Shown: positions 34,102 through 46,844 of the stretch, one piece after another
Layout of the letters: each line of letters opens with the position of its first letter
Position numbering within the stretch: position 1 is the stretch's first letter
Assembly (NCBI GenBank): GCA_024641245.1
Contig: JAHEDK010000002.1
Location: 167,136-231,135, forward strand
Source of the DNA: Actinomycetes bacterium
Lineage (GTDB): Bacteria > Actinomycetota > Acidimicrobiia > Spongiisociales > JAHEDJ01
Length of the DNA: 64,000 bases
Direction: 5' to 3'
Translations under genes and position numbers: made by a program
Notes under the pieces: model-generated
Databases searched by the model: none
The model's input: the letters and a program-made list of their open reading frames with translations, nothing else
Told to the model about the DNA's origin: nothing

Positions 34102-34584
34102 GTGGCAGGAATGAGCCGTCGGACTTTCTTGAGTCGCGCCACCGCGTCGATTGTCGGCGGGATCGGCGCGCTGATGGGCATCCCCACGGTTGCCTATCTC
34201 ATTTCTCCTGCCAAGGCTCGCGGTGGTCTTGGAGTCGAGGCGATCCCGCTCGGGCCTACCAACAAAGTGCCAATCGGGGAACCCACCCTCTTCAAAGCAA
34301 CCATCGAGCGCAAGACCGGATGGGTCACGCAGGCCGAAGAGCTCGCCTTCTACGTCTTCACAGAAGACGGGCGCAACTTCACGGCACTGTCCAACGTTTG
34401 CACGCACCTTGGCTGCCGGGTGCGGTGGGTCGGCAACGAGAAACAGTTCTTCTGCCCTTGCCACAATGCCGTCTTCACCGAAACCGGGAAAGTGGTTTCG
34501 GGCCCACCGCCCAGAGCCCTAGACCAGTACGAGCTGTCGGTTGAAGGTGACCAGTTGTTCGTCGTCGGGAAGGTCGAAGCATGA
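34102..34584 (+). CDS. qcrA: Rieske [2Fe-2S] subunit, complex 1 (Tat signal)
   Basis: Twin-arginine signal MSRRTFLSRA. The Rieske boxes are CTHLGC and CPCHNAVF. Confidence 0.9.
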   Translation: MAGMSRRTFLSRATASIVGGIGALMGIPTVAYLISPAKARGGLGVEAIPLGPTNKVPIGEPTLFKATIERKTGWVTQAEELAFYVFTEDGRNFTALSNVCTHLGCRVRWVGNEKQFFCPCHNAVFTETGKVVSGPPPRALDQYELSVEGDQLFVVGKVEA

Positions 34585-35270
34585 TCCAGAAGCTCAGTGC
34601 TTGGTTCGAAGAGCGGATGGGATGGAAGCCGATCTGGACGGCACTGGCGCTCCGCAACATCCCCAAGGTCAACTGGCTGTACACGCTGGGCAGCGCCACG
34701 CTCCTCGTCACAGTGAACCAGATTCTGACCGGCATCCTCCTCACCATCTACTACGTCCCCAGCCCTCAGGATGCCTACAACAGCGTTGCCTTCATAACGA
34801 ACGAGATCACTGCCGGCTGGCTCATCAGAGGGCTGCATCATTGGGGTGCCAGTGCGATGGTCGTCCTGGCCGGACTCCACATGCTGCGGGTGGTCTTCCA
34901 CGGCGCCTATAAGTTCCCCCGCGAAATCACCTGGTTCACCGGACTCGGCCTCCTGGCCGTGACGATGGCCTTCGGATTCACCGGGTACTTGCTGCCGTGG
35001 GATCAGAAGGCTTACTGGGCTACCACGGTGGGTACCCGAATGCTGGAGGTGACACCCGTCATCGGTGATTGGCTGCTCCGGATCGCCCGCGGTGGGGAAG
35101 AGCTGTCGGCCGTGACGCTCACCCGGTTCTACGGAACCCATGTATGGGTGCTCCCGTCGGTGCTCCTGCTACTCCTGGGTATCCACCTCTTTCTGGTCGT
35201 CCGCGTCGGCATCAGCGCACCTCCGACACCCAAGGAGACAGACGAGAAGCCCAAAGTGTGGTTCGAATAA
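34581..35270 (+). CDS. qcrB: cytochrome b6-type subunit, complex 1 (four-helix, split cytochrome b)
   Basis: The haem ligand pairs are LHHWGASAMVVLAGLH (i/i+14) and THVWVLPSVLLLLLGIH (i/i+15), as in b6/Bacillus QcrB. Overlaps the Rieske gene by 4 bp. Confidence 0.9.
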   Translation: MIQKLSAWFEERMGWKPIWTALALRNIPKVNWLYTLGSATLLVTVNQILTGILLTIYYVPSPQDAYNSVAFITNEITAGWLIRGLHHWGASAMVVLAGLHMLRVVFHGAYKFPREITWFTGLGLLAVTMAFGFTGYLLPWDQKAYWATTVGTRMLEVTPVIGDWLLRIARGGEELSAVTLTRFYGTHVWVLPSVLLLLLGIHLFLVVRVGISAPPTPKETDEKPKVWFE

Positions 35271-37669
35271 TGAAACGCGAAGAACGCTCCAAATACCTCG
35301 AGGAGTACGCAGAGGACAAGAAGAAGGGCATCCCGTTCTTCCCGGACGCCGTGTTCAAGGACGTCCTGGTTGCATTGATCGTGTTGATCATTCTCATCGG
35401 CCTCGCCTACTTCGCAGGCGCCCCGCTCGAAGAACGTGCGAATCCATCCGACAGCGACTACACACCTCGACCGGAGTGGTACTTCCTCTGGCTCTTCCAA
35501 CTGCTCAAGTACTTTCCGGGCAACCTCGAGTTCGTCGGCGTCATCCTCCTGCCTGCCCTCGGATTCGCCATCCTCTTCGCCATGCCGTACCTGGACAGGA
35601 CCAAGCTCCGTCACTTCCGCAACCGCAGTTGGGTGATGGCATCAACCGGCGTCGCCGTGGTAGCCATGGGGTTTCTCACAGTCCAATCCATCAGGGAGAC
35701 CCCGGCGCCGGCCGACGTGAGCGGCACCATCAACGCCGCCGTTCTCTTCACCGAGAATTGCTCCGTATGCCACGGCACATCGATCGATGTCCCGACCGGG
35801 ATAAACCTGCATGAGACGATTGCCGGGGGTCACGAGGGGATGCCGGCCTTCGCAGCCACTCTGTCGACCGATGAAATCGATGCCCTCGCAGGATTCCTGG
35901 TCTCTCCGCAGGGAGGGGCGATATTCACCGCCAACTGCGCGGCATGCCACGATTCGAGTGACCTCGCCGCCGCCACCCCGTTCCAGCTCCAGGACGCCCT
36001 GAATCAAGGCACCGCCTACGCGCCGCATGATGGACTCGACATACCCGACTGGTCCGAGGTCCTCTTCGGCCAGGATCGAACCGCGCTCCTCAACTTCTTG
36101 CTTGCTCCGGACGGCCAGCGCCTCTACACGCTCTACTGCTCCGAATGTCACGGAACCTCGATCAGCTGGGAAGGGGAACGAGACGAACTCGAAGCGCTCA
36201 TCCGCCAGGGCGGCAACCACCTCGAGATGACCCAGTGGAGGGACGTGCTGCCGGAGGACCAGATCACCGAACTCGCTCTGTTCGTCGTCGAACCATCCAC
36301 GGCTCCCGGGGGCGAGCAACTGTTTGCACAGCACTGCTCGAGTTGTCACGGCGTGCGGGTGCCGAGCGCTCCCGACATAGAAACCGCCTACAACATCATC
36401 GCCGACGGTGCAGAGCACCGATCGATGCCTGTCTGGGGCGACGTTCTCACCGAGGAGCAGCTAACCGCACTCACAACCTACACGCTCGAAGCCAGTCGCG
36501 GCACACCGGTCATCGTCGGCCAGCAACTGTTCGGTCAATTGTGCTCGTCGTGCCACGGTGACTTCGGTGAAGGCGGCCCGAACCCCGCCGACCCCATCAG
36601 AATCATCCCTCCGATCAGTACGGCGAGCTATTTGGAGACCCGGGACGACGCCACGTTGCGCGCCATCATCTCAAAGGGTCAGTCGGACCAGGGCATGTCG
36701 CCTTTCCTGGAGAGCGAAGGTGGACCGCTGACCGAGGACGAGGTGAATGCCGTGGTTGCGTTCCTCCGTTCGTGGGAATCGGATCCGCCGGTCGATTTGC
36801 CGCCCGATCTTGCCCGTGGACCCGTCGCGGGTGGAAGCGTGCAGGTGTATGCGGCGTTCTGCGCCCAATGCCACGGAGCAGATGGGGCAGGCGGCCCCGA
36901 TTTGGTCGGTCCTTCCTTGACCTCGGCAGAATTCCAGGATTCCTTCACCGATGAGCAACTGCACGAGGCCATCGACCTCGGCCATGCTGCTACTTCGATG
37001 ATCGCCTGGGGCGAGGTCCTCACCGCCGATCAGATCCAGGGACTCGTCGACCACATCCGCTCGCTGGGCGGACGCGGTACCCTGCAGACGATCGTCTACG
37101 AACGCGACATTGCTCCGATCTTCCAGGCGTCTTGCGCCGGTTGCCACGGGTCGTCGGGGGGTTGGGATGCATCCACCATGGAGTCCGTGATCGGCAGCGG
37201 AAGCAGCGGGCCGGCCGTCGTCGCCGGCGATCCCGACGGGAGTCATCTCGTGCAGCGCCTTCGTGGCGAGGGCAACTTGATGCCCCCGGCCGGAGCGCTG
37301 CCGGACAACCAACTCGATCTGATCGTGCAATGGATTGCCGGGGGAGCAACCGCCGAAGTGACAACAGGCGACGCGCAATCCGGCGGCGGCGACATCGGTG
37401 ATTACACGTGGACGAAGGATGTCCAGCCGATCCTGCAGGCCAGTTGCGCGGCCTGCCACGGATCGTCCGGGGGTTGGTACGCGGGGACGTACAGCTCCAC
37501 GATCAACAGCGGCGACAGCGGTCCGGCCGTCGTCCCTGGGAATGCCGACGACAGTTCGATGATCCAACGACTGCTCGGCAACGGCAACCTGATGCCGCCG
37601 GGAGCTCCGCTTTCGGAAGAACAGATCGCCGTCCTGATCTACTGGGTCAACAGCGGCGCCAAGGAATAG
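35270..37669 (+). CDS. qcrC: subunit IV (cytochrome b C-terminal, PEWY) fused to eight cytochrome c domains (six class-I-like plus two PSCyt1-like)
   Basis: ATG 35270 overlaps the cytochrome b TAA stop. The N-terminus has three TM helices with RPEWYFLWLFQLLKYF. Eight CXXCH motifs follow: CSVCH, CAACH, CSECH, CSSCH, CSSCH, CAQCH, CAGCH, CAACH. The last two domains have the 'planctomycete cytochrome c' pattern (CxxCHG...GPAVV.G.....S.L.QRL......MPP...L....I..WI..GA). Confidence 0.85.
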   Translation: MKREERSKYLEEYAEDKKKGIPFFPDAVFKDVLVALIVLIILIGLAYFAGAPLEERANPSDSDYTPRPEWYFLWLFQLLKYFPGNLEFVGVILLPALGFAILFAMPYLDRTKLRHFRNRSWVMASTGVAVVAMGFLTVQSIRETPAPADVSGTINAAVLFTENCSVCHGTSIDVPTGINLHETIAGGHEGMPAFAATLSTDEIDALAGFLVSPQGGAIFTANCAACHDSSDLAAATPFQLQDALNQGTAYAPHDGLDIPDWSEVLFGQDRTALLNFLLAPDGQRLYTLYCSECHGTSISWEGERDELEALIRQGGNHLEMTQWRDVLPEDQITELALFVVEPSTAPGGEQLFAQHCSSCHGVRVPSAPDIETAYNIIADGAEHRSMPVWGDVLTEEQLTALTTYTLEASRGTPVIVGQQLFGQLCSSCHGDFGEGGPNPADPIRIIPPISTASYLETRDDATLRAIISKGQSDQGMSPFLESEGGPLTEDEVNAVVAFLRSWESDPPVDLPPDLARGPVAGGSVQVYAAFCAQCHGADGAGGPDLVGPSLTSAEFQDSFTDEQLHEAIDLGHAATSMIAWGEVLTADQIQGLVDHIRSLGGRGTLQTIVYERDIAPIFQASCAGCHGSSGGWDASTMESVIGSGSSGPAVVAGDPDGSHLVQRLRGEGNLMPPAGALPDNQLDLIVQWIAGGATAEVTTGDAQSGGGDIGDYTWTKDVQPILQASCAACHGSSGGWYAGTYSSTINSGDSGPAVVPGNADDSSMIQRLLGNGNLMPPGAPLSEEQIAVLIYWVNSGAKE

Positions 37670-37811
37670 TCAATACGAAGCACTCAACACGAGGTGCGGC
37701 GTTCGGCCCGTCGCGATTCGACACTCCGTCGGGTCGGGTTGCTACTCTCCACCGCACCCCGGCGCCGAGCCGGGAGTCGTACAGTAGGGTGTCGACGACG
37801 GAGCATCTGGT

Positions 37812-39608
37812 ATGGAGAAACTTCACTTCTTCGACGAGAACATCCCCTGTCTCGCCGCCTGTCCGGTCAACACGAATGCCGGCATGTACGTTGCCGCCAT
37901 CGCAGACGGACAGGATGAACTGGCCTATCTAACCGCTCGCCTCCCCAACCCGTTCGCCTCCGTCTGCGGTCGGGTTTGTGCGGCGCCATGCGAGGACGCC
38001 TGTCGGCGCGGCGAAATCGACAAGCCCATCGCCATCCGGGCGCTCAAGCGATTCGTCACCGATCAATTCGGCGTCGAATCCGGCATGGATACCTACCGGC
38101 AGGTCGCCGCCCCTGCTCTCGAGTCGCGATCACAAAGCGTCGGGATTGTCGGAGGGGGCCCGGCCGGCCTGGCCGCCGCCCACGACCTCCGCCGCCTCGG
38201 CTACGGCGTCACGCTGTACGAAGCCACCGGTCAGCTCGGCGGCATGATGCTGCTGGGGATCCCCGAGTACCGCCTTGATCGATCCCTCCTGGCGGCGGAG
38301 ATCAAGGCCATCACCGACCTGGGCGTCGAGGTTCGGTTGAACACGAAACTCGGCGATGGCATCACGCTCGATGACCTCCGCCGGCAGCACGATGCCCTAT
38401 TCGTGGCCATCGGGGCGACCCTCGGACGCGGACTCGACCTCGAAGGCCACGACGCAGACGGGGTGTTGAAGGCGATCGAGTACCTGATCAACGCCAACCA
38501 GGGGTTCGCAACCGACGTCGGTCAGAAGGTGGTCGTAATCGGTGGCGGCGACGTGGCGATGGATGCAGCAAGGACCGCGCTACGAGCTGCAACCTACGAT
38601 GAGATCGCCCGCCGCCATGCCGAATACGACGAAGAGGACGGGCGCTCATCCATGACGGAAGCCCTCGACGTGGCTCGCACGGCTGCCCGGACTGGTGCTC
38701 AGGACATAACCATCATGTCACTCGAGGCCAAACACGAGATGCCGGCGTCGGAGTTCGAGGTCGAAGAGGCCGAGCACGAGGACATCAAGTTTGTCAACCG
38801 GCGCGGTCCCGCCCGGATACTCACCGCCGATGGCAAGGTCACCGGCATCGAGACGATCGGGGTCACGCGCGTTTTCGACGAGAACGGCCGGTTCTCCCCT
38901 GAATTCGACGATGCAGATCGGCTGACGCTGGAGGCAGACACCATCATCATGGCTATCGGCCAGGCGATCGATGTTGAGGCACTGGGAGCGAACGGCCCTG
39001 AGTTGAGTCCTCGCAAGACAATCCAAGTGGGTGAGGACAGCCTGGCGACTTCGCTTCCGATGGTATGGGCCGGCGGCGATGCAGCCAGGGGCCCGCGCAC
39101 TCTCATCGATGCGATCGCAGACGGCCGGATTGCGGCCCGTGAGATCCACGAGGCGTTTGGCGGCAGCTTCGCCGAGCAGGATACCGGAACCATGGTGCAA
39201 CTGGACCAGTTCCACCGTCTCGACGACATCTACGACCGGGTCCCCCGGGTCGCCGTGCCCACGCTGCCGACGGACCGGCGCATCGGTCTGGCAGAAGTCG
39301 AAACAGGGTTCACCGTCGAAGAGGCCAGGTGTGAGGCACAGAGGTGTCTGCGCTGCTTCGCCAACATCCTGCTCGATACCGACATTTGTGTTTTATGCGC
39401 GCTGTGCGCCGACGTCTGCCCGCTCGACCTGATTTCGCTGGTTCCCTCGGAGGACATTCACCCAGACGAGCCGGGTGGCACGGCGTTAATGTTGAACGAG
39501 CAAAGCTGCATCCGTTGCGCGCTGTGTATTGAGCGATGCCCGACAGATGCACTGTCGATGGGACTGTGGACCGGAGTGGGAGTGCCGAAATTGGGAGCAC
39601 CGGTATGA
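37812..39608 (+). CDS. GltD-like FAD/NAD(P)-binding Fe-S oxidoreductase with C-terminal 2x[4Fe-4S] ferredoxin domain
   Basis: N-terminal GltD-type cluster region (CLAACPVNTN...FASVCGRVCAAPCEDACRR). Dinucleotide folds VGIVGGGPAGLAAA and VVVIGGGDVAMDAA. C-terminal CLRC...CVLCALCADVCP...CIRCALCIERCP. Confidence 0.85.
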   Translation: MEKLHFFDENIPCLAACPVNTNAGMYVAAIADGQDELAYLTARLPNPFASVCGRVCAAPCEDACRRGEIDKPIAIRALKRFVTDQFGVESGMDTYRQVAAPALESRSQSVGIVGGGPAGLAAAHDLRRLGYGVTLYEATGQLGGMMLLGIPEYRLDRSLLAAEIKAITDLGVEVRLNTKLGDGITLDDLRRQHDALFVAIGATLGRGLDLEGHDADGVLKAIEYLINANQGFATDVGQKVVVIGGGDVAMDAARTALRAATYDEIARRHAEYDEEDGRSSMTEALDVARTAARTGAQDITIMSLEAKHEMPASEFEVEEAEHEDIKFVNRRGPARILTADGKVTGIETIGVTRVFDENGRFSPEFDDADRLTLEADTIIMAIGQAIDVEALGANGPELSPRKTIQVGEDSLATSLPMVWAGGDAARGPRTLIDAIADGRIAAREIHEAFGGSFAEQDTGTMVQLDQFHRLDDIYDRVPRVAVPTLPTDRRIGLAEVETGFTVEEARCEAQRCLRCFANILLDTDICVLCALCADVCPLDLISLVPSEDIHPDEPGGTALMLNEQSCIRCALCIERCPTDALSMGLWTGVGVPKLGAPV

Positions 39609-40342
39609 CATTGGGCCAACGAATCCGCGAAAGCACGATAGGTCGTTCGATCTGGCGCGCCACCGACCGAACCACCGAACGCGACCAGGCGGCCGGTCAC
39701 TGGGCGAACTTCTTTCTGCACATCTACCCGGTGAAAGTGCGCAAGAAGGAGATCACGTTCCGCTATTCCTGGTATCTAGGTGTGGCGTCGGTGGTCCTGT
39801 TCGGATCGCTGATCGTTTCGGGCATCTACCTGATGTTCTTCTACGTCCCGTCGCCTGCCCAGGCCTACGGCGACATCCTCAACCTGCAAACGCGGGTCGC
39901 GTTCGGACAGTACATCCGCAACGTGCACCGCTGGTCGGCTCACCTCATGGTGCTGGTGGTGGCCGCGCACATGGCCCGGGTGTTTTATCGAGGGGCATAC
40001 AAGAAACCCCGCGAATTCAACTGGGGTATCGGCGTGATCCTCCTCGTGCTCACGCTGCTCCTTTCGTTCACCGGCTACCTGCTCCCCTGGGACCAGCTCG
40101 CCTACTGGGCGGTCACGGTCGGCACCGAGATGGCCGCCTTCGTCCCGCTGATCGGGGACACCGTCAAGGAAATGATGCTGGGTGGGCCGGTGGTTGCTTC
40201 GTCGACGCTGCTGCGGTTCTACGTTCTGCATGTCGCCGTTCTGCCCACGGCTGTCGTTCTCCTCATCACAATCCATATGTGGAGATGGCGCAAAGACAGC
40301 ATGCTCGACGCGGCGAAGGAGGGTGTTGATGTCGACGCCTAG
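39605..40342 (+). CDS. cytochrome b6-type subunit, complex 2
   Basis: ATGA overlap with the oxidoreductase gene. The His pairs are VHRWSAHLMVLVVAAH (i/i+14) and LHVAVLPTAVVLLITIH (i/i+15). Confidence 0.9.
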   Translation: MTLGQRIRESTIGRSIWRATDRTTERDQAAGHWANFFLHIYPVKVRKKEITFRYSWYLGVASVVLFGSLIVSGIYLMFFYVPSPAQAYGDILNLQTRVAFGQYIRNVHRWSAHLMVLVVAAHMARVFYRGAYKKPREFNWGIGVILLVLTLLLSFTGYLLPWDQLAYWAVTVGTEMAAFVPLIGDTVKEMMLGGPVVASSTLLRFYVLHVAVLPTAVVLLITIHMWRWRKDSMLDAAKEGVDVDA

Positions 40343-40865
40343 ACCAGATCAGGAAAATCCTGAGATCGTCGCCGGACAACGGGTGCTCGGGGTTGTTCCA
40401 GGCAAGCCGCCGGGCGGCGACCGCAAGGTTCTGAGCGAGCAGGAACCGGTCATGGTCTGGCCGCACCTACTCGTCCGCCACGGGGTGGCGGCGCTGGTGG
40501 TCATCGCCGTCGTTCTGGTGCTTGCCATATTCTTCGATGCCCCGCTGCGTGAGATCGCCAACCCCACGCTGACGCCCAACCCGGAAAAGGCCCCCTGGTA
40601 TTTCGCGGCGCTCCAGGAGCTGCTCTCGATGTTCCATCCGCTGGTGGCCGGTGTGCTGGTCCCGGGCGCCATCGTCCTCGGGCTCTTCGCGCTTCCGTAT
40701 GTGGATCGGACTTCGACGATCGAGCCGCGGTTCCGCAAGGTGGCGGTGGCGACGTTCACGATCTTCATGGTCGTGTGGATAGTCCTGACGGTTATCGGAT
40801 TCGCCTTCCGCGGCCCCAACTGGGGTTGGGTGTGGCCATGGCAAGAGTGGTACGGAGAGCTATGA
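40329..40865 (+). CDS. subunit IV-like (cytochrome b C-terminal) protein, complex 2
   Basis: Three TM helices. EKAPWYFAALQELLSMF aligns with the PEWY region, so the motif reads APWY here. I prefer ATG 40329 inside the track ORF. Confidence 0.8.
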   Translation: MSTPRPDQENPEIVAGQRVLGVVPGKPPGGDRKVLSEQEPVMVWPHLLVRHGVAALVVIAVVLVLAIFFDAPLREIANPTLTPNPEKAPWYFAALQELLSMFHPLVAGVLVPGAIVLGLFALPYVDRTSTIEPRFRKVAVATFTIFMVVWIVLTVIGFAFRGPNWGWVWPWQEWYGEL

Positions 40866-41368
40866 GCAACGGAATCGGTCGGAGAGAATTCCTATCCCGG
40901 GCCTGGAAGTGGGGTGCCGCCCTCATCGGTGTCGCCGGCGGTTGGACCACGTGGGATATCCTGCAGCCCCGGGTCACCGGAGGCTTTGGTGGCGTCATCA
41001 AGACCAAGGCAGCCGACACAGTGCCGGACACCAACGTCGAATCCATCCGGGCCGCCAGAACCTACCTGACGAAGATCGACGGGCAGGTTGTAGCCCTCTC
41101 CGAGAAATGCCCGCACCTCGGTTGCCGGGTGCCGTGGTGTGATTCGTCCGGACAGTTCGAGTGCCCGTGCCACGGCTCGGTCTTCAACCGGGCGGGCGAG
41201 TACCGCGCAGGGCCCGCTCCCCGCGGAATGGACCGCTACGAGTTCGAGACGATCGACGGCATCGTCTACGTAGACACCGGAGCACCGGTATCCGGGCCGG
41301 CAATCGGTGTGGAGACCCTCAACGAACCCGTACGAGGGCCATCGTGTGAGGACAGCTCCCATGGGTGA
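40862..41368 (+). CDS. Rieske [2Fe-2S] subunit, complex 2 (Tat signal)
   Basis: GRREFLSRAWKWG Tat-like signal. The Rieske boxes are CPHLGCRV and CPCHGSVF. ATGA overlap with the preceding gene. Confidence 0.9.
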   Translation: MSNGIGRREFLSRAWKWGAALIGVAGGWTTWDILQPRVTGGFGGVIKTKAADTVPDTNVESIRAARTYLTKIDGQVVALSEKCPHLGCRVPWCDSSGQFECPCHGSVFNRAGEYRAGPAPRGMDRYEFETIDGIVYVDTGAPVSGPAIGVETLNEPVRGPSCEDSSHG

Positions 41369-41825
41369 GCGTCCGGTTGACCAGGAACTCGAACAGTCGA
41401 CCGTCAGATGGATGCAGGCCGGACTGGCCCTGATGGTCGTCCTGGTGCTGGCGTTTCCCGCCTACCGGCTCCTCGAACCTACCAACCGCGAAGAAGCACG
41501 CGACCTCTTGACGGAAGAACTCGCCGTCCAGGGCGAAGAGCTATTCGCGGGGCAGTGCGCCTCCTGTCACGGCGAAAAGGGGCTGAATGGACCGATCGGT
41601 CCGTCGCTCAACTCGAAGCAGTTCCTGGAGGCGGCCACCGACAGCCAGATCATCAGCCTCGTCTCGGTCGGCGTCCCGGGCTCTCAGATGGGCGCCTACT
41701 CGATCGACTTCGGAGGCCCACTGACACTCGAGCAAATCACCGGCATCGCAACCTATCTGCGCTCGCTGGAGAAAGACGCCCCGGACAATCCTGACTGGCG
41801 AGCAGTAGTAACGCCGGGGAGCTAG
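41361..41825 (+). CDS. membrane-anchored monohaem class I cytochrome c, complex 2
   Basis: N-terminal TM anchor, CASCHG, and the distal Met region GVPGSQMGAY. Confidence 0.85.
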   Translation: MGERPVDQELEQSTVRWMQAGLALMVVLVLAFPAYRLLEPTNREEARDLLTEELAVQGEELFAGQCASCHGEKGLNGPIGPSLNSKQFLEAATDSQIISLVSVGVPGSQMGAYSIDFGGPLTLEQITGIATYLRSLEKDAPDNPDWRAVVTPGS

Positions 41826-41852
41826 TCGCGGGTTGCTAGTCGCGGGTTGCTA
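41821..41852. repeat. tandem 14-mer GCTAGTCGCGGGTT x2.3 spanning the cytochrome c stop codon
   Basis: GCTAGTCGCGGGTT GCTAGTCGCGGGTT GCTAG. The first TAG (41823-41825) is the stop codon. Confidence 0.9.
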
Positions 41853-42372: not shown

Positions 42373-42486
42373 TCAGCCCTCCACCCGGCGGCGGACGCTG
42401 CGCAGGCGCACAGTCAAGAACACCGCATATCCGATCATGAAGCCGTACACCACCGTGTAGGCAAAAACGACCCATCCGTTAGACAT
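42373..42486 (-). CDS. ccmD: CcmD-like small membrane protein (37 aa), not in the ORF track
   Basis: The minus-strand ORF reads MSNGWVVFAYTVVYGFMIGYAVFLTVRLRSVRRRVEG. It sits between ccmC and ccmE, overlapping the ccmC stop by 8 nt and ending 1 nt before the ccmE ATG. One TM helix plus a basic tail is the CcmD layout. Confidence 0.55.
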   Translation of the reverse strand: MSNGWVVFAYTVVYGFMIGYAVFLTVRLRSVRRRVEG

Positions 42487-43204
42487 CTCGCACCTTCTCG
42501 AGGTTGGGAGCCGTGATGGCGGCACCGGCGGGCGTGGCATCAGCGGCGGCGGATTGTTCTTCGAGTTGTTCCTCGCCCCTGGCGATGGCCGTCTTGACGC
42601 TCATGAAGGCGAGATAGACCACGGTGAACGCTCCAACGTTGCTGAGCAACGCCAGCAGGATCTCTCCATCGATCGGAGAATCCGGTCGCACCACCGTGAT
42701 CCCCTGGTGCAACGTGCGAACGATGATCACCGAAACGTAGGACAGCGGCACGAGGAAGAAGGCCACGATGCCCAGCACCGCGGATCTCGTCGCCCGCATG
42801 GCCGGGTCGGGAATGCTGCGGCGCAAAGCCAGGTAACCGAGGTAGACGAAGAACATGAGGGCCGTCGTCATCATGCGGGCATCGCCCCAGTCCCAGAACG
42901 TCCCCCACACCGGGTAACCCCAGATCATGCCGGTCATGAGCGCCAGCGCGGTGAAGAACACGCCGACCGAGACGCTGGACTCGGCGATTCGATCGTAAAC
43001 GGGCTTGCGTCTCGCCAGCCACAGGATCGAGGCGGCGAACGTCACAAGAAACGAGAGGTAGGCAAGCCACGCCGAAGGTACGTGCACGTACATGATGCGG
43101 GTGTAGTCGCCCTGCAACTGATCGAGCGGCGCCTGGCCACCGAAGTAGAAGCCGACCAGCACCGCTGCCAGTGCGATCAACCCGAGTATTCGATGTCTAT
43201 TCAA
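42479..43204 (-). CDS. ccmC: haem exporter/haem handling protein CcmC
   Basis: WWD motif WGYPVWGTFWDWGDARM with flanking His residues, and six TM helices. Confidence 0.9.
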   Translation of the reverse strand: MNRHRILGLIALAAVLVGFYFGGQAPLDQLQGDYTRIMYVHVPSAWLAYLSFLVTFAASILWLARRKPVYDRIAESSVSVGVFFTALALMTGMIWGYPVWGTFWDWGDARMMTTALMFFVYLGYLALRRSIPDPAMRATRSAVLGIVAFFLVPLSYVSVIIVRTLHQGITVVRPDSPIDGEILLALLSNVGAFTVVYLAFMSVKTAIARGEEQLEEQSAAADATPAGAAITAPNLEKVRDV

Positions 43205-43881
43205 CGTGAGGCCTCCTCGAGGAATCGGGCGGTCAGCACACCTACCACTGCCAGCCCGAGTACCACGGCAAGTAGCAGAAGGATGGGAGTGAGGATACTT
43301 GACTTCTGAGCCAACGCTTCATACGTCTGTGATGCTCCGACGAGCAGCGGCAACGCCAGCGGTGCCACCAGCAGCGGTGCCAGCGTGTTACGAGAGCGCA
43401 GACCGGCCGTGATACCGGAGGCGAGCGTACCGATGAGCGCCAGGCCGACGGCCATCAGCAGAAGGACCAAAATCAGGATCGCCCACCCCTCTACCGGGTC
43501 CGGGTTGTAGAGGATGATCGTGGCGGGCGCAAGCACTCCTTCGAACACGAGCAACAGGAGGACGCTCGCCACAACCCTGCCCGCGAACTGCGCGGCCGGG
43601 TCCACGCCGAGCAACACCATCATCTCGCGATTGGCCGAACTCTCTGTGGCCGACTGGCGGAACGTGACCAGCATCCCGAACAGCAGGGTCACGACCCAGA
43701 ACATGCCCGGTCCGATCGAGGCGATGAGTGGACGGTCGGTCCCGATCGCCAGCGGGATGAGCAGCAGCGCAACCGCTCCAAACGGGATCGTGATGTTCAG
43801 GACCTCGCCGGTCCGTCCTTCGACCCGCAGATCCTTCAACCCGATCTCATATGCCTGGCCCCAGAACGACGGACCGCTCAT
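43201..43881 (-). CDS. ccmB: haem exporter membrane protein CcmB
   Basis: Six-TM CcmB-like protein lying between ccmA and ccmC, with 4-bp overlaps on both sides. Confidence 0.85.
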   Translation of the reverse strand: MSGPSFWGQAYEIGLKDLRVEGRTGEVLNITIPFGAVALLLIPLAIGTDRPLIASIGPGMFWVVTLLFGMLVTFRQSATESSANREMMVLLGVDPAAQFAGRVVASVLLLLVFEGVLAPATIILYNPDPVEGWAILILVLLLMAVGLALIGTLASGITAGLRSRNTLAPLLVAPLALPLLVGASQTYEALAQKSSILTPILLLLAVVLGLAVVGVLTARFLEEASR

Positions 43882-44534
43882 GATGAGCTCCCCGCGATCA
43901 CGATCCCACCCGTCAGCTCATAGGTCGATTGCACCAGCGGCAGCATGCGATCGAGTTCGTGGGACACGAAGACGGCGGCGCCACCACGGGAACGGACGTT
44001 CTCGACAACTGCGTCGACGAGTTGTCCGGCCTCTCGATCTAGTCCGGCGTGGGCCTCATCGAGCAGCAGTAGGTCGGGCCTGGTGAGAATCACCCTGGCG
44101 AACTCAACTCGCCGCTGCATACCATGCGACGACTGCTCCGCCCGCCGGTGCTTCGCCCCACCCAGCCCGACCACGTCGAGCATCTCATCTACCCGCTCGT
44201 CAGTGTGGCCCGACAACCGGGCGACGAAGGCGAGATTCTCACGCAGCGTCAACTGCGGGTAGAGCGCCGGTTGATGGCCGATCAGCGCGATCCGGCGCCG
44301 GATCGCAAACGCCGTCGCTTCGCCCATCTCGGTGCCGAACACCGCCACCGAGCCCTCCGTCGGTCGCAGCAACGTGGCCAGCACCCGGAGCAGCGTCGAC
44401 TTTCCCGAACCATTCGGCCCAACGATCCCGGCTGCCTCCCCGGACGGTACCGCCAGCTCCACGCCCTTCAATACCGGCACCCGGCCGTATCGAACGGCGA
44501 CGCCGTGCAGCTGCACTGTGGGAGGTGTGGACAT
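43878..44534 (-). CDS. ccmA: haem exporter ATP-binding protein CcmA
   Basis: Walker A GPNGSGKST, ABC signature SHGMQRR, and Walker B LLLLDEA. I prefer ATG 44534. Confidence 0.9.
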   Translation of the reverse strand: MSTPPTVQLHGVAVRYGRVPVLKGVELAVPSGEAAGIVGPNGSGKSTLLRVLATLLRPTEGSVAVFGTEMGEATAFAIRRRIALIGHQPALYPQLTLRENLAFVARLSGHTDERVDEMLDVVGLGGAKHRRAEQSSHGMQRRVEFARVILTRPDLLLLDEAHAGLDREAGQLVDAVVENVRSRGGAAVFVSHELDRMLPLVQSTYELTGGIVIAGSSS

Positions 44535-44804
44535 GACAGACGAGTGTACGCACGCAGCTTCGGGCGCCGAAACGCGACCCCGGATAAACACCACCCGTTC
44601 TCTCCCTTTCGCCACCTTTTCAGGGTTTTATGGCGGGTTTCAACCCAGGCAGGGCCCAAGTGCCCCAGGGCGCGAGGACTTTGCGCTGTTGGTGTGTTTC
44701 CGATATACCCGTATCCTCTGCAATGAGAAACGGGGGACCGACCCTGAATCGCCGCCGGAACGGCTCATTCACACGGTGATCCCCATGGAGGAAGGCACAG
44801 CAAA

Positions 44805-46844
44805 ATGAACGCGACCCTCGGGTATCTCTCGATCCTGGCCGCAGTGGTGGGAGCGCTCGGTATCACCGTGCGGGGTTTCATCGCGATGCGTGATCCGGAG
44901 CGGGCGAACAAAGGGTATCTGGGGTTGCCCGTCATACTGTTCGTGTCCGGAGCCGTCGGCGCAATGTTCTTCCTGGAACTCGGGCTTCTCACCGACGACT
45001 TCTCGATCAAGTACATCGCCAACAACTCCTCGACCACCACCCCGTTTCTCTTCAAGGTCGCCTCTGGATGGGCATCGCTGGAGGGATCGATCGTTTTGTG
45101 GGGTCTGGTCCTGGCCGGCTTCACATTCGCCGTATACGCACGGTTCTTCAGAAGCGAAAGCGGCGACCGGCTCGCAGCAGGGGCTCTGGCGATCATGGGG
45201 CTCATCTCTCTTTACTTCTTCGGGCTAATGGCCACAATCTCCGACCCATTCGCTCGCTGCGTGCAAACGTTCAGCGACGGTGTCGGTTGTGTGACCGGCG
45301 AGAACGCGATCCTCGCCAACGTGATCTCCTCCCCGATCGAAGGGCGCGGCGCCAACGCACTGCTCCAGAACCATTGGCTCATGGCCCTGCATCCACCAAC
45401 GCTCTACGTCGGCTATGTCGGGCTCAGCGTCCCCTTTGCGTTTGCCATCTCGGCGCTCCTCCTCAAAACCACCGGGGCGGCCTGGCTGACCCGGACCCGC
45501 AACTGGACGGTGTTCGCCTGGATGTTCCTCACTGCCGGCATTGTTCTCGGTGGGCTCTGGTCGTATGAGGTGCTCGGCTGGGGCGGCTACTGGGCATGGG
45601 ACCCGGTTGAGAACGCCTCCTTCATGCCGTGGCTGGTCGCGACTGCCTTCTTGCACTCGTCTGTCGTGCAGGCGAGGCGCGGGATGCTGCAGTCGTGGAA
45701 CTTCGTCCTCGTCATCACGACCTTCGCGCTCACGATTCTCGGCACCTTCTTGACCCGCTCCGGCGTAATCGTTTCGGTTCACAGCTTCTCGCAGTCCGCC
45801 ATCGGGCCTGCCCTGTTGATCTTCCTGGTGGTCGTGCTGCTGGGATCGCTCGGGCTCTTCGCGTCAAGGGCTCACACCATCGCCTCTTCTCCCCGGCTCG
45901 ATTCACTCAGCAGCCGGGAAGGGGTGTTCTTGTTCAACAACCTTCTGCTCACCGTGTTCGCGTTCATGGTGCTGACAGGGACGCTCTACCCGCTCTTCGT
46001 TGAGGCGTTCTCCGACTCGACGGTGGGCGTCGGTCGTCCGTTCTTCGATCGCATGGCGATCCCGTTGTCCTTCCTGTTGCTGCTGGCGATGGGCATCGGA
46101 CCGGTCTCGCCCTACCGGGCGGCGAGCGCCCGCGTCGTGTGGGAGCGGATTCGCTGGCCCGTCCGGGTTGCCCTCGGCGCCGCCGCGCTGGCCGTCGTGT
46201 TCGGCTATCGGAACTCGTTCCTGCTGCTCGGTGTTCTGGCCGCCGTGTTCGTCATGGGCGTGATCATCCGCAACCTCTACGACGCCGCCCGGACCAGGGC
46301 AGACAAACTCGGTATCGGACGGAGACAGGCCGCCGCCCGGATCATGCGCGGCGACCCGCACTATTGGGGTGGCCAGATCTCCCACCTGGGCGTTGCGATA
46401 CTGGCACTGGGCATCGCCTTCTCAGCCAACCTGTCGGAGACCGCCACGGTGACCATCGACGCCGGAGATACGGTCAACTTCGCCGGCTTCGAGGTGACCT
46501 ACGAACAGGAGTTCAGCCGCCAGGAACCGGGCCGGTTCGTCACCGGAGCAGACATCACGGTGACCCGGGACGGGTCGGTCGTCGGTACGTACCAGCCACG
46601 GCTGAATCAGTACGGCAACACGCGGGAATCGATCGCCACCCCAGAGGTCGACACCATGTTCTCAGGCGACCTGTACCTCTCGCTCCGCAGCATCGATCCT
46701 TCATCCGTGACCCTCGAGGTCTATTGGTTCCCGTTCATCTGGCTCATCTGGGTTGGAGGCTTCCTGGCGGCCGCCGCCGGGGTCTGGGGATTCGCGGTCA
46801 AGAAGCCCGAACGTTCGGTTGCACGGGACGACACGCGTGTCTGA
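44805..46844 (+). CDS. ccmF: cytochrome c haem lyase subunit CcmF
   Basis: Large polytopic protein with the WWD motif WGGYWAWDPVENAS. GGAGGAAGG RBS. Confidence 0.9.
   Translation: MNATLGYLSILAAVVGALGITVRGFIAMRDPERANKGYLGLPVILFVSGAVGAMFFLELGLLTDDFSIKYIANNSSTTTPFLFKVASGWASLEGSIVLWGLVLAGFTFAVYARFFRSESGDRLAAGALAIMGLISLYFFGLMATISDPFARCVQTFSDGVGCVTGENAILANVISSPIEGRGANALLQNHWLMALHPPTLYVGYVGLSVPFAFAISALLLKTTGAAWLTRTRNWTVFAWMFLTAGIVLGGLWSYEVLGWGGYWAWDPVENASFMPWLVATAFLHSSVVQARRGMLQSWNFVLVITTFALTILGTFLTRSGVIVSVHSFSQSAIGPALLIFLVVVLLGSLGLFASRAHTIASSPRLDSLSSREGVFLFNNLLLTVFAFMVLTGTLYPLFVEAFSDSTVGVGRPFFDRMAIPLSFLLLLAMGIGPVSPYRAASARVVWERIRWPVRVALGAAALAVVFGYRNSFLLLGVLAAVFVMGVIIRNLYDAARTRADKLGIGRRQAAARIMRGDPHYWGGQISHLGVAILALGIAFSANLSETATVTIDAGDTVNFAGFEVTYEQEFSRQEPGRFVTGADITVTRDGSVVGTYQPRLNQYGNTRESIATPEVDTMFSGDLYLSLRSIDPSSVTLEVYWFPFIWLIWVGGFLAAAAGVWGFAVKKPERSVARDDTRV

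What the first reader, a model, noticed from the sequence alone, without database searches (positions are those of the whole stretch)
37812..41825. Rieske/cytochrome b complex whose first gene is a GltD-like NAD(P)/FAD/Fe-S oxidoreductase
Seen directly: the 598-aa oxidoreductase stop overlaps the cytochrome b start (ATGA at 39605-39608). The genes cyt b, subunit IV, Rieske and cytochrome c follow with overlaps of 14, 4 and 8 nt, so this is one translationally coupled unit. The oxidoreductase has the GltD cluster-binding N-terminus (GRVCAAPCEDAC), two GxGxxG folds, and a 2x[4Fe-4S] ferredoxin tail.

From memory, the only Rieske/cyt b complexes described with an NAD(P) oxidoreductase subunit are the unusual anammox (Kuenenia) complexes. 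Those were proposed to couple quinol oxidation to NAD(P)+ reduction by bifurcation.

The inference is that this locus is an independent, simpler example: a quinol:cytochrome c/NAD(P)+ bifurcating or reverse-electron-transport bc complex. That would be especially useful for a lithotroph oxidising a weak donor.

In this complex the Qo-site PEWY position reads APWY, with no acidic residue. The neighbouring complex keeps PEWY.
Basis: partly seen in the sequence, partly recalled or inferred. Interest (0 to 1): 0.8.

Follow-up and report, generated by a model that had tools for sequence, protein, structure and literature searches.

The report
Flavoprotein-capped Rieske/cytochrome b respiratory operon
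An Acidimicrobiia genome carries a five-gene respiratory operon in which a cytochrome bc-type complex has an extra NAD-linked iron-sulfur flavoprotein; it is a simple, class-wide relative of the poorly understood anammox complexes and could make their proposed quinol-to-NAD(P)+ bifurcation easier to test.

Summary
Five + strand genes (37812-41825) encode a 598-aa GltD/NfnB-like Fe-S flavoprotein, a split cytochrome b, subunit IV (APWY), a Rieske protein and a membrane-anchored monohaem cytochrome c. Their overlaps are 4, 14, 4 and 8 nt.

The adjacency is not chance. All 70 Acidimicrobiia loci with enough DNA keep all five genes in order. In eight of nine distant relatives checked (named ones: Nitrospinota, Desulfomonilaceae, Myxococcota) a Rieske gene follows the flavoprotein gene directly. 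In the ninth (Nitrospirota) a Rieske/cytochrome b pair lies about 4 kb downstream.

The flavoprotein's closest structures are the NfnABC and StnC subunits, the same relatives reported for Kuenenia Kuste4570. The Rieske protein's best solved-structure matches are the two Kuenenia Rieske proteins.

An "APWY clade" of cytochrome b (including Ilumatobacter) and the co-occurrence of such cytochromes b with NAD(P)-binding Fe-S proteins were already published. No member has been characterised biochemically.

New here: the operon is conserved across the class, haem cN is absent, an N-terminal histidine motif is conserved, the Rieske is of the serine type, and the NADPH "YRR" motif is replaced by "SLE", which suggests NADH. 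The direction of electron flow remains untested.

Verdict: a new member of a known kind, of moderate interest.

The parts
37812..39608 (+). Cytoplasmic Fe-S flavoprotein (598 aa): NfnB/GltD-type module plus a C-terminal 2x[4Fe-4S] ferredoxin domain. No transmembrane segment is expected.
   Evidence: Pfam and NCBIfam hits. PDB sequence hits: 9bov/9bp5 at 5.7e-89, then 8oh5_C, 4ylf_B and 5t5i_F. AF2 model with pLDDT 91.8. Foldseek best match 9bov_A, TMq 0.73.
37839..38069 (+). N-terminal Fe-S domain (residues 10-86). Cys13, 17, 56, 60 and 64 (plus Cys52, which varies, and Glu61), together with Cys512 and Cys515, are the likely ligands of two [4Fe-4S] clusters.
   Evidence: Fer4_20 hit. Cysteines invariant or nearly invariant in 89 sequences. 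Alignment to NfnB shows a circular permutation.
38151..38168 (+). FAD-binding GxGxxG (GGGPAG, residues 114-119).
   Evidence: Read from the sequence. G114 and G116 are invariant and G119 nearly invariant.
38541..38558 (+). Pyridine-nucleotide Rossmann motif GGGDVA (residues 244-249).
   Evidence: Read from the sequence. G244 is invariant; G245 and G246 are conserved in at least 90% of 89 sequences.
38718..38726 (+). End of strand beta-2 reads SLE (residues 303-305) where NfnB, StnC and the other NfnABC relatives read YRR. This predicts a preference for NAD(H) over NADP(H).
   Evidence: HMMER alignments to 9bov, 9n5u, 8oh5, 4ylf and 5jca. L304 and E305 are invariant in alignment A1. Among 101 representatives: CLE 54, SLE 9, YRR 22.
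39342..39356 (+). RCLRC (residues 511-515). This Fe-S ligand segment lies at the N-terminus in NfnB/GltD but follows the FAD domain here.
   Evidence: NfnB residues 12-42 align to query residues 485-515. R511, C512 and C515 are invariant.
39366..39560 (+). 2x[4Fe-4S] ferredoxin domain (residues 519-583; CxxCxxCxxxCP twice). It is the presumed contact to the membrane part.
   Evidence: Pfam Fer4, Fer4_7 and related hits. PDB 5t5i_F at 1.1e-18. All eight Cys are invariant.
39605..40342 (+). Cytochrome b, b6-type four-helix form (245 aa). Haem ligands are H108, H122, H209 and H224. There is no CxGG motif, so no haem cN.
   Evidence: Pfam Cytochrome_B. Best NCBIfam hit is ExtP, 260 bits against a cut-off of 290. 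Conservation in 71 sequences.
39674..39733 (+). Conserved cytoplasmic N-terminal segment (residues 24-43, ...RDQAAGHWANFFLHIYPV). H32 and H39 are invariant in Acidimicrobiia. The N-x3-H-x2-P motif around H39 is shared with flavoprotein-linked cytochromes b of other phyla. It is a candidate docking or extra-haem site.
   Evidence: The upstream paralogue has Arg at this position. Hauser et al. 2025 predict an interfacial haem b on His43/His62 of the Kuenenia cytochromes b. Equivalence to those residues was not tested.
40329..40865 (+). Subunit IV (178 aa, three predicted transmembrane helices). The Qo motif APWY is at residues 88-91 (nt 40590-40601).
   Evidence: Pfam Cytochrom_B_C. NPEKAPWYFAALQELL is invariant in 71 sequences. 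Hydropathy profile.
40862..41368 (+). Rieske [2Fe-2S] protein (168 aa) with a twin-arginine N-terminus (GRREFL). Cluster boxes are CPHLGC and CPCHGSVF (residues 83-108, nt 41108-41185).
   Evidence: Pfam Rieske. Best PDB hits are 9rk3 (Kustd1480) and 9rk4 (Kuste4569). The serine-type motif is present in 9 of 9 linked Rieske proteins.
41361..41825 (+). Membrane-anchored monohaem cytochrome c (154 aa). CASCH is at residues 66-70 (nt 41556-41570).
   Evidence: Pfam Cytochrome_CBB3 and Cytochrom_C. One CxxCH motif and an N-terminal hydrophobic helix.
34102..37669 (+). Context: a neighbouring second Rieske/cytochrome b operon. It encodes a Rieske (CPCHNA), a cytochrome b6 (TLGS) and subunit IV (PEWY) fused to an eight-haem cytochrome c. 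It is not part of the unit and served as the internal control.
   Evidence: It is adjacent only in the closest relatives, L007 and L023.
42479..48685 (.). Context: cytochrome c maturation genes. CcmC, CcmB and CcmA are on the - strand. CcmF, a TPR protein and a thioredoxin-like protein are on the + strand.
   Evidence: Pfam hits.

Best explanation
The five genes encode one membrane complex. It is a b6-type Rieske/cytochrome b complex of the published "APWY" lineage, and a soluble NfnB/GltD-like flavoprotein sits on its cytoplasmic face. The flavoprotein carries FAD, a pyridine-nucleotide site and four [4Fe-4S] clusters.

The flavoprotein wires the low-potential haem b chain to NAD(H), so that chain does not depend only on a quinone-reducing Qi site.

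Most likely mode (inferred, about 40% on its own) is quinol-based bifurcation:
- Menaquinol is oxidised at the APWY Qo site.
- One electron goes to a serine-type, probably high-potential, Rieske cluster. From there it passes to the anchored monohaem cytochrome c and then to a haem-copper oxidase.
- The other electron goes through haems bL and bH, possibly through an extra haem held by the conserved His39, and then through the four Fe-S clusters to FAD, which reduces NAD+.
- By my rough estimate this runs close to equilibrium, so it should be reversible.

What is shown: the gene unit, its conservation, the cofactor-binding motifs, and the homology to the NfnABC-type subunit and to the Kuenenia Rieske proteins.

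What is inferred: physical docking, the nucleotide preference and the direction of electron flow.
For: Linkage:
- Translationally coupled genes in the window.
- All five genes in order in 70 of 70 complete Acidimicrobiia loci, with median overlaps of -4, -8, -4 and -1 nt.
- Same linkage in distant relatives at 40-50% identity. A Rieske gene follows the flavoprotein gene directly in 8 of 9 checked (cytochrome b comes first in the Nitrospinota locus; two loci end before cytochrome b). In the ninth, a Rieske/cytochrome b pair lies about 4 kb downstream. Taxa with names are Nitrospinota, Desulfomonilaceae, Myxococcota and Nitrospirota.

Cofactors:
- Invariant Cys sets sufficient for four [4Fe-4S] clusters, plus intact FAD and nucleotide motifs.
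- AF2 model with pLDDT 91.8. Best folds are NfnABC 9bov_A, StnC 8oh5_C and 9n5u_A.

Link to the anammox complexes:
- Hauser et al. 2025 found 9bp5 (the same NfnABC) and 5t5i as the structural relatives of Kuste4570, and modelled four Fe-S clusters plus FAD. The same two entries appear in my sequence search.
- The window Rieske's two best PDB hits are Kustd1480 and Kuste4569, which were measured at +335 and +303 mV. The neighbouring complex's Rieske prefers b6f PetC instead.
- According to Hauser et al., the subunits of the Kuenenia complex co-migrate experimentally.

Signatures of the linked complexes:
- CPCHGS-x-F in 9 of 9 linked Rieske proteins, against CPCHNA and CPCHAG in 2 unlinked ones.
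- The N-x3-H-x2-P motif, APWY and the absence of CxGG in all linked cytochromes b examined.
- The window cytochrome b scores 190-253 bits against linked cytochromes b of other phyla, with alignments starting at residue 2-35. It scores only 144 bits against its own neighbour, with the alignment starting at residue 58.

High-potential branch:
- COX2 and COX1 genes lie divergently upstream in 37 of 70 loci.
Against: - There are no experimental data for any member outside Kuenenia, and none on catalysis even there.
- Docking could not be modelled, because only monomer AF2 was available.
- The His39 motif may be a general trait of the APWY lineage. The closest NCBIfam model, Geobacter ExtP, starts at residue 33 and belongs to a cluster with no flavoprotein.
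- The window complex lacks haem cN, the five-helix subunit IV and the multihaem cytochromes of the Kuenenia complexes, so their model may not transfer.
- My own rough estimate, from textbook potentials, is that reducing NAD+ from menaquinol against the membrane potential with a cytochrome c acceptor near +250 to +300 mV has almost no margin. Electron input from NADH would be strongly downhill.
- The nucleotide preference rests on a motif argument only.
Confidence: 0.6

Rival explanations
1. Same complex, opposite use. The flavoprotein is an electron-input module. NADH reduces FAD, the Fe-S clusters and haem bH, which reduces menaquinone on the cytoplasmic side. That quinol is then oxidised at Qo. 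The whole would act as an NADH:cytochrome c (or NADH:quinone) oxidoreductase, the "membrane-anchored dehydrogenase" of Dibrova et al.
For: - The reaction is strongly downhill, so it is robust in aerobic heterotrophs.
- A haem-copper oxidase is next to the operon in 37 of 70 loci.
- The SLE motif suggests NADH, the catabolic carrier.
- Dibrova et al. proposed that such dehydrogenases were ancestral.
- Hauser et al. discuss this option for Kuenenia.
Against: - A simple dehydrogenase would not need a Rieske protein and a cytochrome c in strict linkage in every lineage.
- The serine-type Rieske, whose closest solved relatives are proteins measured above +300 mV, in a presumed menaquinone organism fits a need for a very low-potential b chain.
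- There is no haem cN, and no recognisable Qi residues were identified.
- Hauser et al. argue that the energy loss makes this unlikely where complex I exists. Whether complex I is present here was not checked.
Confidence: 0.3
2. The flavoprotein is co-transcribed but is not a subunit. It would be a soluble NfnB/SudA/GltD-like enzyme, for example a ferredoxin- or sulfur-linked NAD(P)H oxidoreductase, that is merely co-regulated with the bc complex.
For: - The protein has no transmembrane segment and has a complete, self-contained cofactor set.
- Relatives such as NfnB, SudA and GltD work in soluble complexes.
Against: - No partner gene of the NfnA, GltB or SudB type was seen among the called genes of the loci examined.
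- The linkage to Rieske/cytochrome b survives changes of gene order across at least five phyla, with overlapping stop and start codons.
- The Kuenenia homologues co-migrate with the bc subunits, as cited.
- The cytochrome b has a conserved extra cytoplasmic segment of about 30 residues.
Confidence: 0.07
3. The second nucleotide site no longer binds NAD(P)H. The flavoprotein would exchange electrons with another cytoplasmic carrier, such as ferredoxin, flavodoxin or a thiol/disulfide.
For: - The YRR motif is lost.
- A duplicated helix plus an acidic insert of about 25 residues sits inside the nucleotide domain. This part of the AF2 model has low confidence (pLDDT 52-75 for residues 261-300).
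Against: - The GGGDVA glycine motif is conserved (G244 invariant; G245 and G246 in at least 90% of 89 sequences).
- An acidic residue at the end of strand beta-2 is the classical NADH signature (established knowledge of Rossmann folds).
- Twenty-two of 101 family representatives keep YRR, and the two whose context was checked, P0143 and P0186, sit in the same kind of operon.
Confidence: 0.05

Closest known systems
Anammox Rieske/cytochrome b complexes Kuste4569-4574 and Kustd1480-1485 of Kuenenia stuttgartiensis (Kartal et al. 2013; Hauser et al. 2025, PMC12954380)
   Same: - Split b6-type cytochrome b plus subunit IV, a Rieske protein and a c-type cytochrome.
- A cytoplasmic flavoprotein of roughly 550-600 aa with FAD and four Fe-S clusters, whose fold matches NfnABC (9bp5/9bov) and FwdF (5t5i).
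- The window Rieske's best PDB matches are these two Rieske proteins. Its CPCHGS-x-F motif matches Kustd1480.
- A histidine in the N-terminal cytoplasmic segment of cytochrome b.
   Different: - The window complex has one monohaem cytochrome c in place of hexa- or octahaem cytochromes and an HAO-like protein.
- Subunit IV has three transmembrane helices, not five.
- There is no CxGG motif, hence no haem cN.
- SLE replaces the NADPH-type motif. The state of this motif in Kuenenia is not known to me.
- The host is an Acidimicrobiia, often with an adjacent oxidase, not an anaerobic anammox planctomycete.
"APWY clade" of cytochrome b (Kao & Hunte 2014, PMC4122944) and "subfamily G" (Dibrova et al. 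2013; 2017, PMC5600118)
   Same: - APWY as the Qo motif.
- The published clade spans delta-proteobacteria, Nitrospirales, Planctomycetes, Chloroflexi and Actinobacteria, including Ilumatobacter. I found a partly overlapping spread.
- Reported co-occurrence with large NAD(P)-binding Fe-S proteins.
   Different: - Those papers give no anatomy of the Acidimicrobiia operon, the flavoprotein or the conserved histidine motif.
- Dibrova et al. report that short cytochromes b of subfamily G usually keep CxGG. This short cytochrome b lacks it.
- I did not build a tree to place the protein formally.
NfnB-like NADPH-binding subunit of Bfu-type NfnABC and StnABC (PDB 9bov/9bp5, 9n5u, 8oh5), and classical NfnB, GltD and SudA
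   Same: - Same fold (TMq 0.73; 31-33% identity).
- Two [4Fe-4S] clusters plus FAD plus a nucleotide domain.
- The same circular permutation, with the RCLxC segment placed after the FAD domain as in the NfnABC/StnC chains.
   Different: - No HydB/HydC-like or NfnA/GltB partner genes.
- The partner is a membrane Rieske/cytochrome b complex.
- YRR is replaced by SLE.
- A helix-duplication insert lies at about residues 259-296.
Cytochrome b6f and Firmicute b6c complexes
   Same: - Four-helix cytochrome b with b6-type His spacing (H209 to H224).
- A three-helix subunit IV and a Rieske protein. Cytochrome b6 is the best solved relative.
   Different: - No haem cN.
- APWY in place of PEWY or PDWY.
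- An extra N-terminal segment and an added flavoprotein.
Geobacter ExtOPQ (Cbc6) Rieske/cytochrome b unit of the extHIJKLMNOPQS cluster (PMC5877670)
   Same: The best NCBIfam models for the window cytochrome b and subunit IV are ExtP (260 bits) and ExtQ (62 bits).
   Different: - Both scores are below the curated cut-offs (290 and 150).
- The Geobacter cluster has multihaem cytochromes and no flavoprotein.

Membership tests
Rieske/cytochrome b complex (b6-type, split cytochrome b) | Cytochrome b with two pairs of His haem ligands on helices B and D | tested here: met
   H108/H122 and H209/H224 are present and conserved in 71 sequences. Pfam Cytochrome_B, E = 3.9e-44.
Rieske/cytochrome b complex (b6-type, split cytochrome b) | Subunit IV carrying a PxWY-type Qo motif | tested here: met
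   Pfam Cytochrom_B_C. The motif is the APWY variant, invariant in 71 sequences.
Rieske/cytochrome b complex (b6-type, split cytochrome b) | Rieske protein with CxHxGC ... CxCH boxes | tested here: met
   CPHLGC and CPCHGS are present.
Cytochrome b6f / b6c proper | CxGG motif in helix A for covalent haem cN | tested here: not met
   The motif reads Y/F-L-G-V in 71 of 71 sequences, with no Cys.
APWY clade (Kao & Hunte 2014) / subfamily G (Dibrova 2013) | APWY as the Qo motif | tested here: met
.
APWY clade (Kao & Hunte 2014) / subfamily G (Dibrova 2013) | Phylogenetic placement of cytochrome b within the clade | tested here: inconclusive
   No tree with reference members was built. Indirect support only: the window cytochrome b is closer to APWY cytochromes b of other phyla (190-253 bits) than to its own PEWY neighbour (144 bits).
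APWY clade (Kao & Hunte 2014) / subfamily G (Dibrova 2013) | Co-occurrence with a large NAD(P)-binding Fe-S protein | tested here: met
Anammox-type NAD(P)-linked Rieske/cytochrome b complex (Kuenenia) | Flavoprotein subunit with FAD, a nucleotide site and four Fe-S clusters, with an NfnABC-like fold | tested here: met
   compared.
Anammox-type NAD(P)-linked Rieske/cytochrome b complex (Kuenenia) | Multihaem (hexa- or octahaem) cytochrome c subunits | tested here: not met
   A single CxxCH motif in a 154-aa protein.
Anammox-type NAD(P)-linked Rieske/cytochrome b complex (Kuenenia) | Five-helix subunit IV and haem cN | tested here: not met
   Three hydrophobic helices. No CxGG motif.
Anammox-type NAD(P)-linked Rieske/cytochrome b complex (Kuenenia) | High-potential Rieske protein (above +300 mV) | not testable with these tools
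   Indirect evidence only: the serine-type motif, and best PDB similarity to Kustd1480 and Kuste4569.
Anammox-type NAD(P)-linked Rieske/cytochrome b complex (Kuenenia) | N-terminal His of cytochrome b ligating an interfacial haem b (itself only a prediction) | tested here: inconclusive
   H39 is invariant and shared across phyla. Equivalence to His43/His62 could not be checked without the Kuenenia sequences or a multimer model.
Anammox-type NAD(P)-linked Rieske/cytochrome b complex (Kuenenia) | Physical association of the flavoprotein with the membrane subunits | not testable with these tools
   Only gene linkage and overlapping codons are available.
GltD / NfnB / SudA small-subunit family | Fer4_20 Fe-S domain plus FAD and NAD(P)H Rossmann domains | tested here: met
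GltD / NfnB / SudA small-subunit family | Adjacent partner subunit (GltB, NfnA or SudB) | tested here: not met
   No such gene in the window or among the called genes of the relatives' loci.
GltD / NfnB / SudA small-subunit family | NADPH-type YRR motif after strand beta-2 | tested here: not met
   The window reads SLE. E305 is invariant in Acidimicrobiia.

The most novel reading that the evidence does not exclude
A five-subunit, quinol-driven NAD+ reductase is a core respiratory enzyme across a whole class of mostly aerobic Actinobacteria. In it, Q-based bifurcation sends the high-potential electron to cytochrome c and on to oxygen, and sends the low-potential electron through the b haems, a possible extra haem and four Fe-S clusters to NAD+.

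This would be a third mode of operation for bc complexes, beside the Q cycle and its reversal. It would give reverse electron flow to NAD+ without a reversed complex I. It could also be tested in culturable organisms, unlike the anammox versions.
Probability: 0.3. Interest if true: 0.8.

Novelty: new member of a known kind. Interest (0 to 1): 0.5.

Why it matters
**The open question.** Rieske/cytochrome b complexes are textbook enzymes with one accepted mechanism. For more than a decade it has been proposed that some of them divert the low-potential electron to NAD(P)+. This has never been tested, because the only studied examples come from slow-growing anammox enrichment cultures and are large and complicated.

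**What this operon offers.** It shows the same flavoprotein-plus-bc design in a minimal five-subunit form. It has one monohaem cytochrome c and no haem cN. Relatives of the flavoprotein turned up at more than 570 places in species-representative genomes, and the best-matching ones are almost all Acidimicrobiia, a class with cultured aerobic members.

**If the complex is isolated.** Three questions could be settled directly:
- whether quinol-based bifurcation to NAD+ exists,
- what the APWY Qo site does,
- whether an extra haem bridges the b haems to the Fe-S chain.

**If it turns out to be an NADH-input module instead.** It would still be a previously uncharacterised route from NADH to cytochrome c.

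Tried and rejected
- **First AF2 run.** The shallow alignment (14 sequences, at least 70% identical) gave pLDDT 48 and was discarded. A run with 89 diverse sequences worked.
- **afdb50 fold search.** I wanted it to find the Kuenenia UniProt entries, but the library was not available. The Kuenenia flavoprotein and cytochrome b sequences were therefore never compared directly.
- **Promoter and terminator scan of 33800-42600.** It found no promoter-like sites and no more terminator-like sites than in shuffled sequence. It is uninformative for a 63% G+C actinobacterium.
- **Literature not held.** Dibrova et al. 2013 is not in the library, and no supplements are held for the 2017 paper. The exact membership of subfamily G could not be checked.
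- **Other papers read.** The Nitrospina genome, Nitrospira transcriptome, clade II nos, Geobacter and flavin-bifurcation papers do not describe this flavoprotein-bc linkage.
- **Neighbour-gene clustering.** It was noisy because of spurious antisense ORFs in high-G+C DNA. Only the COX2/COX1 cluster was verified.
- **Rejected: ordinary glutamate synthase small subunit.** There is no GltB gene, there is a ferredoxin tail, and every curated NCBIfam cut-off is missed.
- **Rejected: the C-terminal tail as a universal docking peptide.** The tail (ALSMGxWTGVGVP) is conserved only within Acidimicrobiia.
- **Rejected: His32 as a cross-phylum feature.** It is specific to Acidimicrobiia. Only His39 is shared across phyla.

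Full report
**1. The observation**

The window is about 63% G+C. Its proteins match MAGs named Acidimicrobiia.

Five + strand ORFs run from 37812 to 41825:
- A 598-aa oxidoreductase (37812-39608). Pfam Fer4_20 covers residues 10-86, Pyr_redox_2 covers 110-438, and two Fer4 motifs cover 519-583.
- Cytochrome b (39605-40342).
- Subunit IV (40329-40865).
- A Rieske protein (40862-41368).
- A cytochrome c (41361-41825).

I read the junctions in the DNA. GRVCAAPCEDAC (residues 53-64), GGGPAG (114-119) and the two CxxCxxCxxxCP motifs are present. The second "GxGxxG" is actually GGGDVA. Subunit IV reads NPEKAPWYF. The upstream complex reads PEWY.

**2. Is the adjacency meaningful?**

I scanned one genome per GTDB species with two conserved peptides of the oxidoreductase. 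The best 80 loci are almost all labelled Acidimicrobiia, including Ilumatobacter and Microthrixaceae.

tblastn with the five window proteins showed the same order in all 70 loci that have enough downstream DNA: oxidoreductase, cytochrome b, subunit IV, Rieske, cytochrome c. The 10 exceptions are contig ends. With heuristically chosen start codons, the median gaps at the four junctions are -4, -8, -4 and -1 nt. Translational coupling is therefore conserved too.

The upstream PEWY complex is adjacent only in the closest relatives, so it is not part of the unit.

**3. Beyond the class**

A search of 1.84 billion cluster representatives found 3522 relatives with E below 1e-30. Many are 600-650 aa, match over the full length, and are 40-50% identical. 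Named ones come from Nitrospinota, Nitrospirota, Desulfomonilaceae and Myxococcota.

I looked up the genomic context of nine of them:
- In eight, the oxidoreductase gene is followed directly by Rieske, cytochrome b and cytochrome c genes. Gene order varies, cytochrome b is split or fused, and the start and stop codons often overlap. Two of these loci end before cytochrome b. Two are followed by a NosZ-like gene.
- In the ninth (Nitrospirota), a Rieske/cytochrome b pair lies about 4 kb downstream.

This flavoprotein family therefore looks like a dedicated companion of one lineage of Rieske/cytochrome b complexes.

**4. Anatomy of the flavoprotein**

Its best solved relatives by sequence are, in order:
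- the NfnB-like chains of Bfu-type NfnABC (9bov/9bp5, E = 5.7e-89; 9n5u) and StnC (8oh5);
- classical NfnB (4ylf, 5jca);
- GltD and DPD.

The C-terminal domain matches the polyferredoxin FwdF (5t5i).

An AF2 model built from 89 diverse sequences is confident (pLDDT 91.8, pTM 0.91). Foldseek returns the same ranking, with 9bov_A at TMq 0.73.

The HMMER alignments show a circular permutation relative to NfnB and GltD. The "RCLxC" segment opens NfnB, but here it follows the FAD domain (residues 511-515), as it does in the NfnABC and StnC chains.

Across the 89 sequences:
- Cys17, 56, 60, 64, 512 and 515 are invariant, and Cys13 and Glu61 are nearly so. That is enough for two [4Fe-4S] clusters.
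- The eight ferredoxin-domain cysteines are invariant, which gives two more clusters.

The cofactor set is therefore FAD, one pyridine-nucleotide site and four [4Fe-4S] clusters.

All NADPH-binding relatives read YRR at the end of strand beta-2. The window protein reads SLE. L304 and E305 are invariant in Acidimicrobiia. Among 101 full-length representatives the motif is CLE in 54, SLE in 9 and YRR in 22. An acidic residue at this position is the classical signature of NADH preference in Rossmann folds. That is established knowledge; applying it here is inference.

**5. Anatomy of the membrane part**

*Cytochrome b.*
- It has the four haem-ligand histidines with b6-type spacing.
- It has no CxGG motif (Y/F-L-G-V in 71 of 71 sequences), so no haem cN.
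- It carries a strongly conserved cytoplasmic N-terminal segment of about 30 residues that the neighbouring paralogue lacks. H32 and H39 are invariant within it.
- The motif N-x3-H-x2-P around H39 is also present in the flavoprotein-linked cytochromes b of Nitrospinota, Desulfomonilaceae, Myxococcota and three unnamed lineages.
- It is absent from the window's PEWY cytochrome b and from an unlinked CxGG cytochrome b in the Nitrospirota locus.

*Other membrane subunits.*
- Subunit IV has three predicted helices and an invariant NPEKAPWYFAALQELL.
- The cytochrome c is anchored and monohaem.

*Rieske.*
- It has a twin-arginine N-terminus and CPHLGC ... CPCHGSVF.
- All nine flavoprotein-linked Rieske proteins examined read CPCHGS-x-F. 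The two unlinked ones read CPCHNA and CPCHAG.

*Similarity pattern.* The window cytochrome b is more similar to linked cytochromes b of other phyla (190-253 bits, alignments starting at residue 2-35) than to its own neighbour (144 bits, alignment starting at residue 58).

**6. Relation to the anammox complexes**

Hauser et al. 2025 (PMC12954380) describe the two Kuenenia complexes that carry an NAD(P) oxidoreductase. Their main points:
- The proposal is that quinol bifurcation drives NAD(P)+ reduction.
- The Rieske potentials are +303 and +335 mV.
- AlphaFold3 models show four Fe-S clusters, FAD, and a new interfacial haem b ligated by His43/His62 of cytochrome b.

Those are exactly the relatives I obtained for the window protein.

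Among all solved structures, the window Rieske's two best hits are 9rk3 (Kustd1480, 58.7 bits) and 9rk4 (Kuste4569, 53 bits), ahead of b6f PetC (50.6 bits). The margins are small. The control points the other way, though: the neighbouring PEWY Rieske prefers PetC (67 bits), and the Kuenenia proteins rank 9th and 12th.

The window complex differs from the Kuenenia complexes in three ways. It has no haem cN, a three-helix rather than five-helix subunit IV, and one monohaem cytochrome c instead of multihaem proteins.

**7. What was already known**

- Kao & Hunte 2014 (PMC4122944) defined an "APWY clade" of cytochrome b. [quoted passage not shown] They noted that no member had been characterised, and they suggested reverse operation.
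- Dibrova et al. [quoted passage not shown] They built an evolutionary scenario on this.

The kind is therefore known from comparative genomics. The Acidimicrobiia operon, its class-wide conservation and the signatures listed above were not described in the papers I could read.

The best NCBIfam model for the cytochrome b is Geobacter ExtP. The score is below the cut-off, and the ExtOPQ cluster has no flavoprotein. This warns that the histidine motif may be a lineage trait rather than a marker of docking.

**8. Context**

- Cytochrome c maturation genes (CcmA, CcmB, CcmC, CcmF and a thioredoxin-like protein) follow the operon.
- Further downstream lie many multihaem cytochrome genes.
- In 37 of 70 related loci a COX2/COX1 haem-copper oxidase operon lies divergently about 1 kb upstream of the flavoprotein gene. 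This fits a high-potential branch that ends at oxygen.
- Nothing in the window identifies the host as a lithotroph.

**9. Mechanism**

*Shown:*
- A conserved, translationally coupled five-gene unit.
- A flavoprotein with FAD, a nucleotide site and four Fe-S clusters.
- A b6-type core with an APWY Qo motif, without haem cN, and with an extra conserved cytoplasmic segment.
- A serine-type Rieske protein.

*Inferred:*
- The flavoprotein docks on the cytoplasmic face and connects NAD(H) to the b haems.

*Direction of flow.* I consider quinol-based bifurcation to NAD+ the most likely mode, at about 0.4 on its own. Three things favour it:
- The Rieske and cytochrome c genes are always retained.
- The linked Rieske proteins are of the serine type, and their closest solved relatives are proteins measured above +300 mV.
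- No haem cN or recognisable Qi-type feature is present.

My own rough estimate from textbook potentials is as follows.
- Taking menaquinol at about -74 mV and an acceptor at +250 to +300 mV, roughly 320-370 meV is released.
- Reducing NAD+ costs roughly 220-250 meV.
- Moving one electron across the membrane costs roughly another 120 meV.

The reaction would therefore run close to equilibrium and be reversible.

The main rival, at about 0.3, is an NADH-input module that feeds haem bH and a quinone site. It is strongly downhill and would suit aerobic heterotrophs. However, it does not explain why Rieske and cytochrome c are strictly retained, or why the Rieske is of the serine type. Mere co-transcription of a soluble enzyme is unlikely (about 0.07).

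**10. Verdict**

The operon is a new, minimal and widespread member of a known but biochemically uncharacterised kind. Interest is moderate. A specialist would not be astonished, but the operon offers a much simpler system in which to test a long-standing hypothesis about bc complexes.

Noticed in passing
window 48795-62909: A dense run of multihaem c-type cytochrome ORFs. CxxCH counts are 5 (48795-49484), 10 (49527-51698), 6 (52940-54094, - strand), 11 (54250-55752), about 10 (55749-57300), 10 (57293-58309), 8 (58093-59157) and 9 (61800-62909). Together with the two bc operons and the Ccm genes this looks like a respiratory island, possibly for extracellular electron transfer, in an Acidimicrobiia genome. 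Two of the ORFs overlap in different frames (57293-58309 and 58093-59157), so there may be a frameshift or a miscalled ORF.
   Followed up: partly
window 34102-37669: A second Rieske/cytochrome b operon. Subunit IV (PEWY) is fused to a cytochrome c domain of about 640 aa with eight CxxCH motifs, including two Planctomycete-cytochrome-C (PSCyt1) repeats at the C-terminus. Its cytochrome b has TLGS in place of CxGG, as reported for Rubrobacter and Conexibacter.
   Followed up: partly
L052 3698-5934 (- strand), and 37 of the 70 complete loci among L001-L080: A short COX2 (191 aa) plus COX1 (554 aa) haem-copper oxidase operon lies divergently about 1 kb upstream of the flavoprotein gene in about half of the related species. 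It is absent from this position in the window.
   Followed up: partly
window 38553-38699 (oxidoreductase residues about 248-296): The nucleotide-domain helix appears twice (VAMDAARTALRAA and EALDVARTAARTGA), with an acidic linker of about 25 residues between the copies. HMMER aligns the single NfnB helix to both copies. Residues 261-300 are the low-confidence part of the AF2 model (pLDDT 52-75).
   Followed up: no
L082 11165-13066 and L084 10238-11959: In two distant relatives (a Desulfomonilaceae MAG and an unnamed metagenome contig) the flavoprotein-Rieske-cytochrome b-cytochrome c unit is followed directly by a gene with a nos_propeller domain (plus a cupredoxin domain in L084), which looks like NosZ. 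This suggests that such complexes can serve N2O reduction. Sigma-54 two-component regulators often lie upstream.
   Followed up: no
L086 6960-8682: In a Nitrospirota MAG the flavoprotein gene is followed by three small proteins with no Pfam hit. One has a four-Cys CPICG...CLKC motif where a Rieske would have Cys/His, and two are membrane proteins. This may be a diverged replacement of the Rieske/cytochrome b core.
   Followed up: no
L081 2070-3029: In the Nitrospinota locus an EB_dh (ethylbenzene-dehydrogenase-like haem b) protein is encoded directly upstream of the flavoprotein gene.
   Followed up: no
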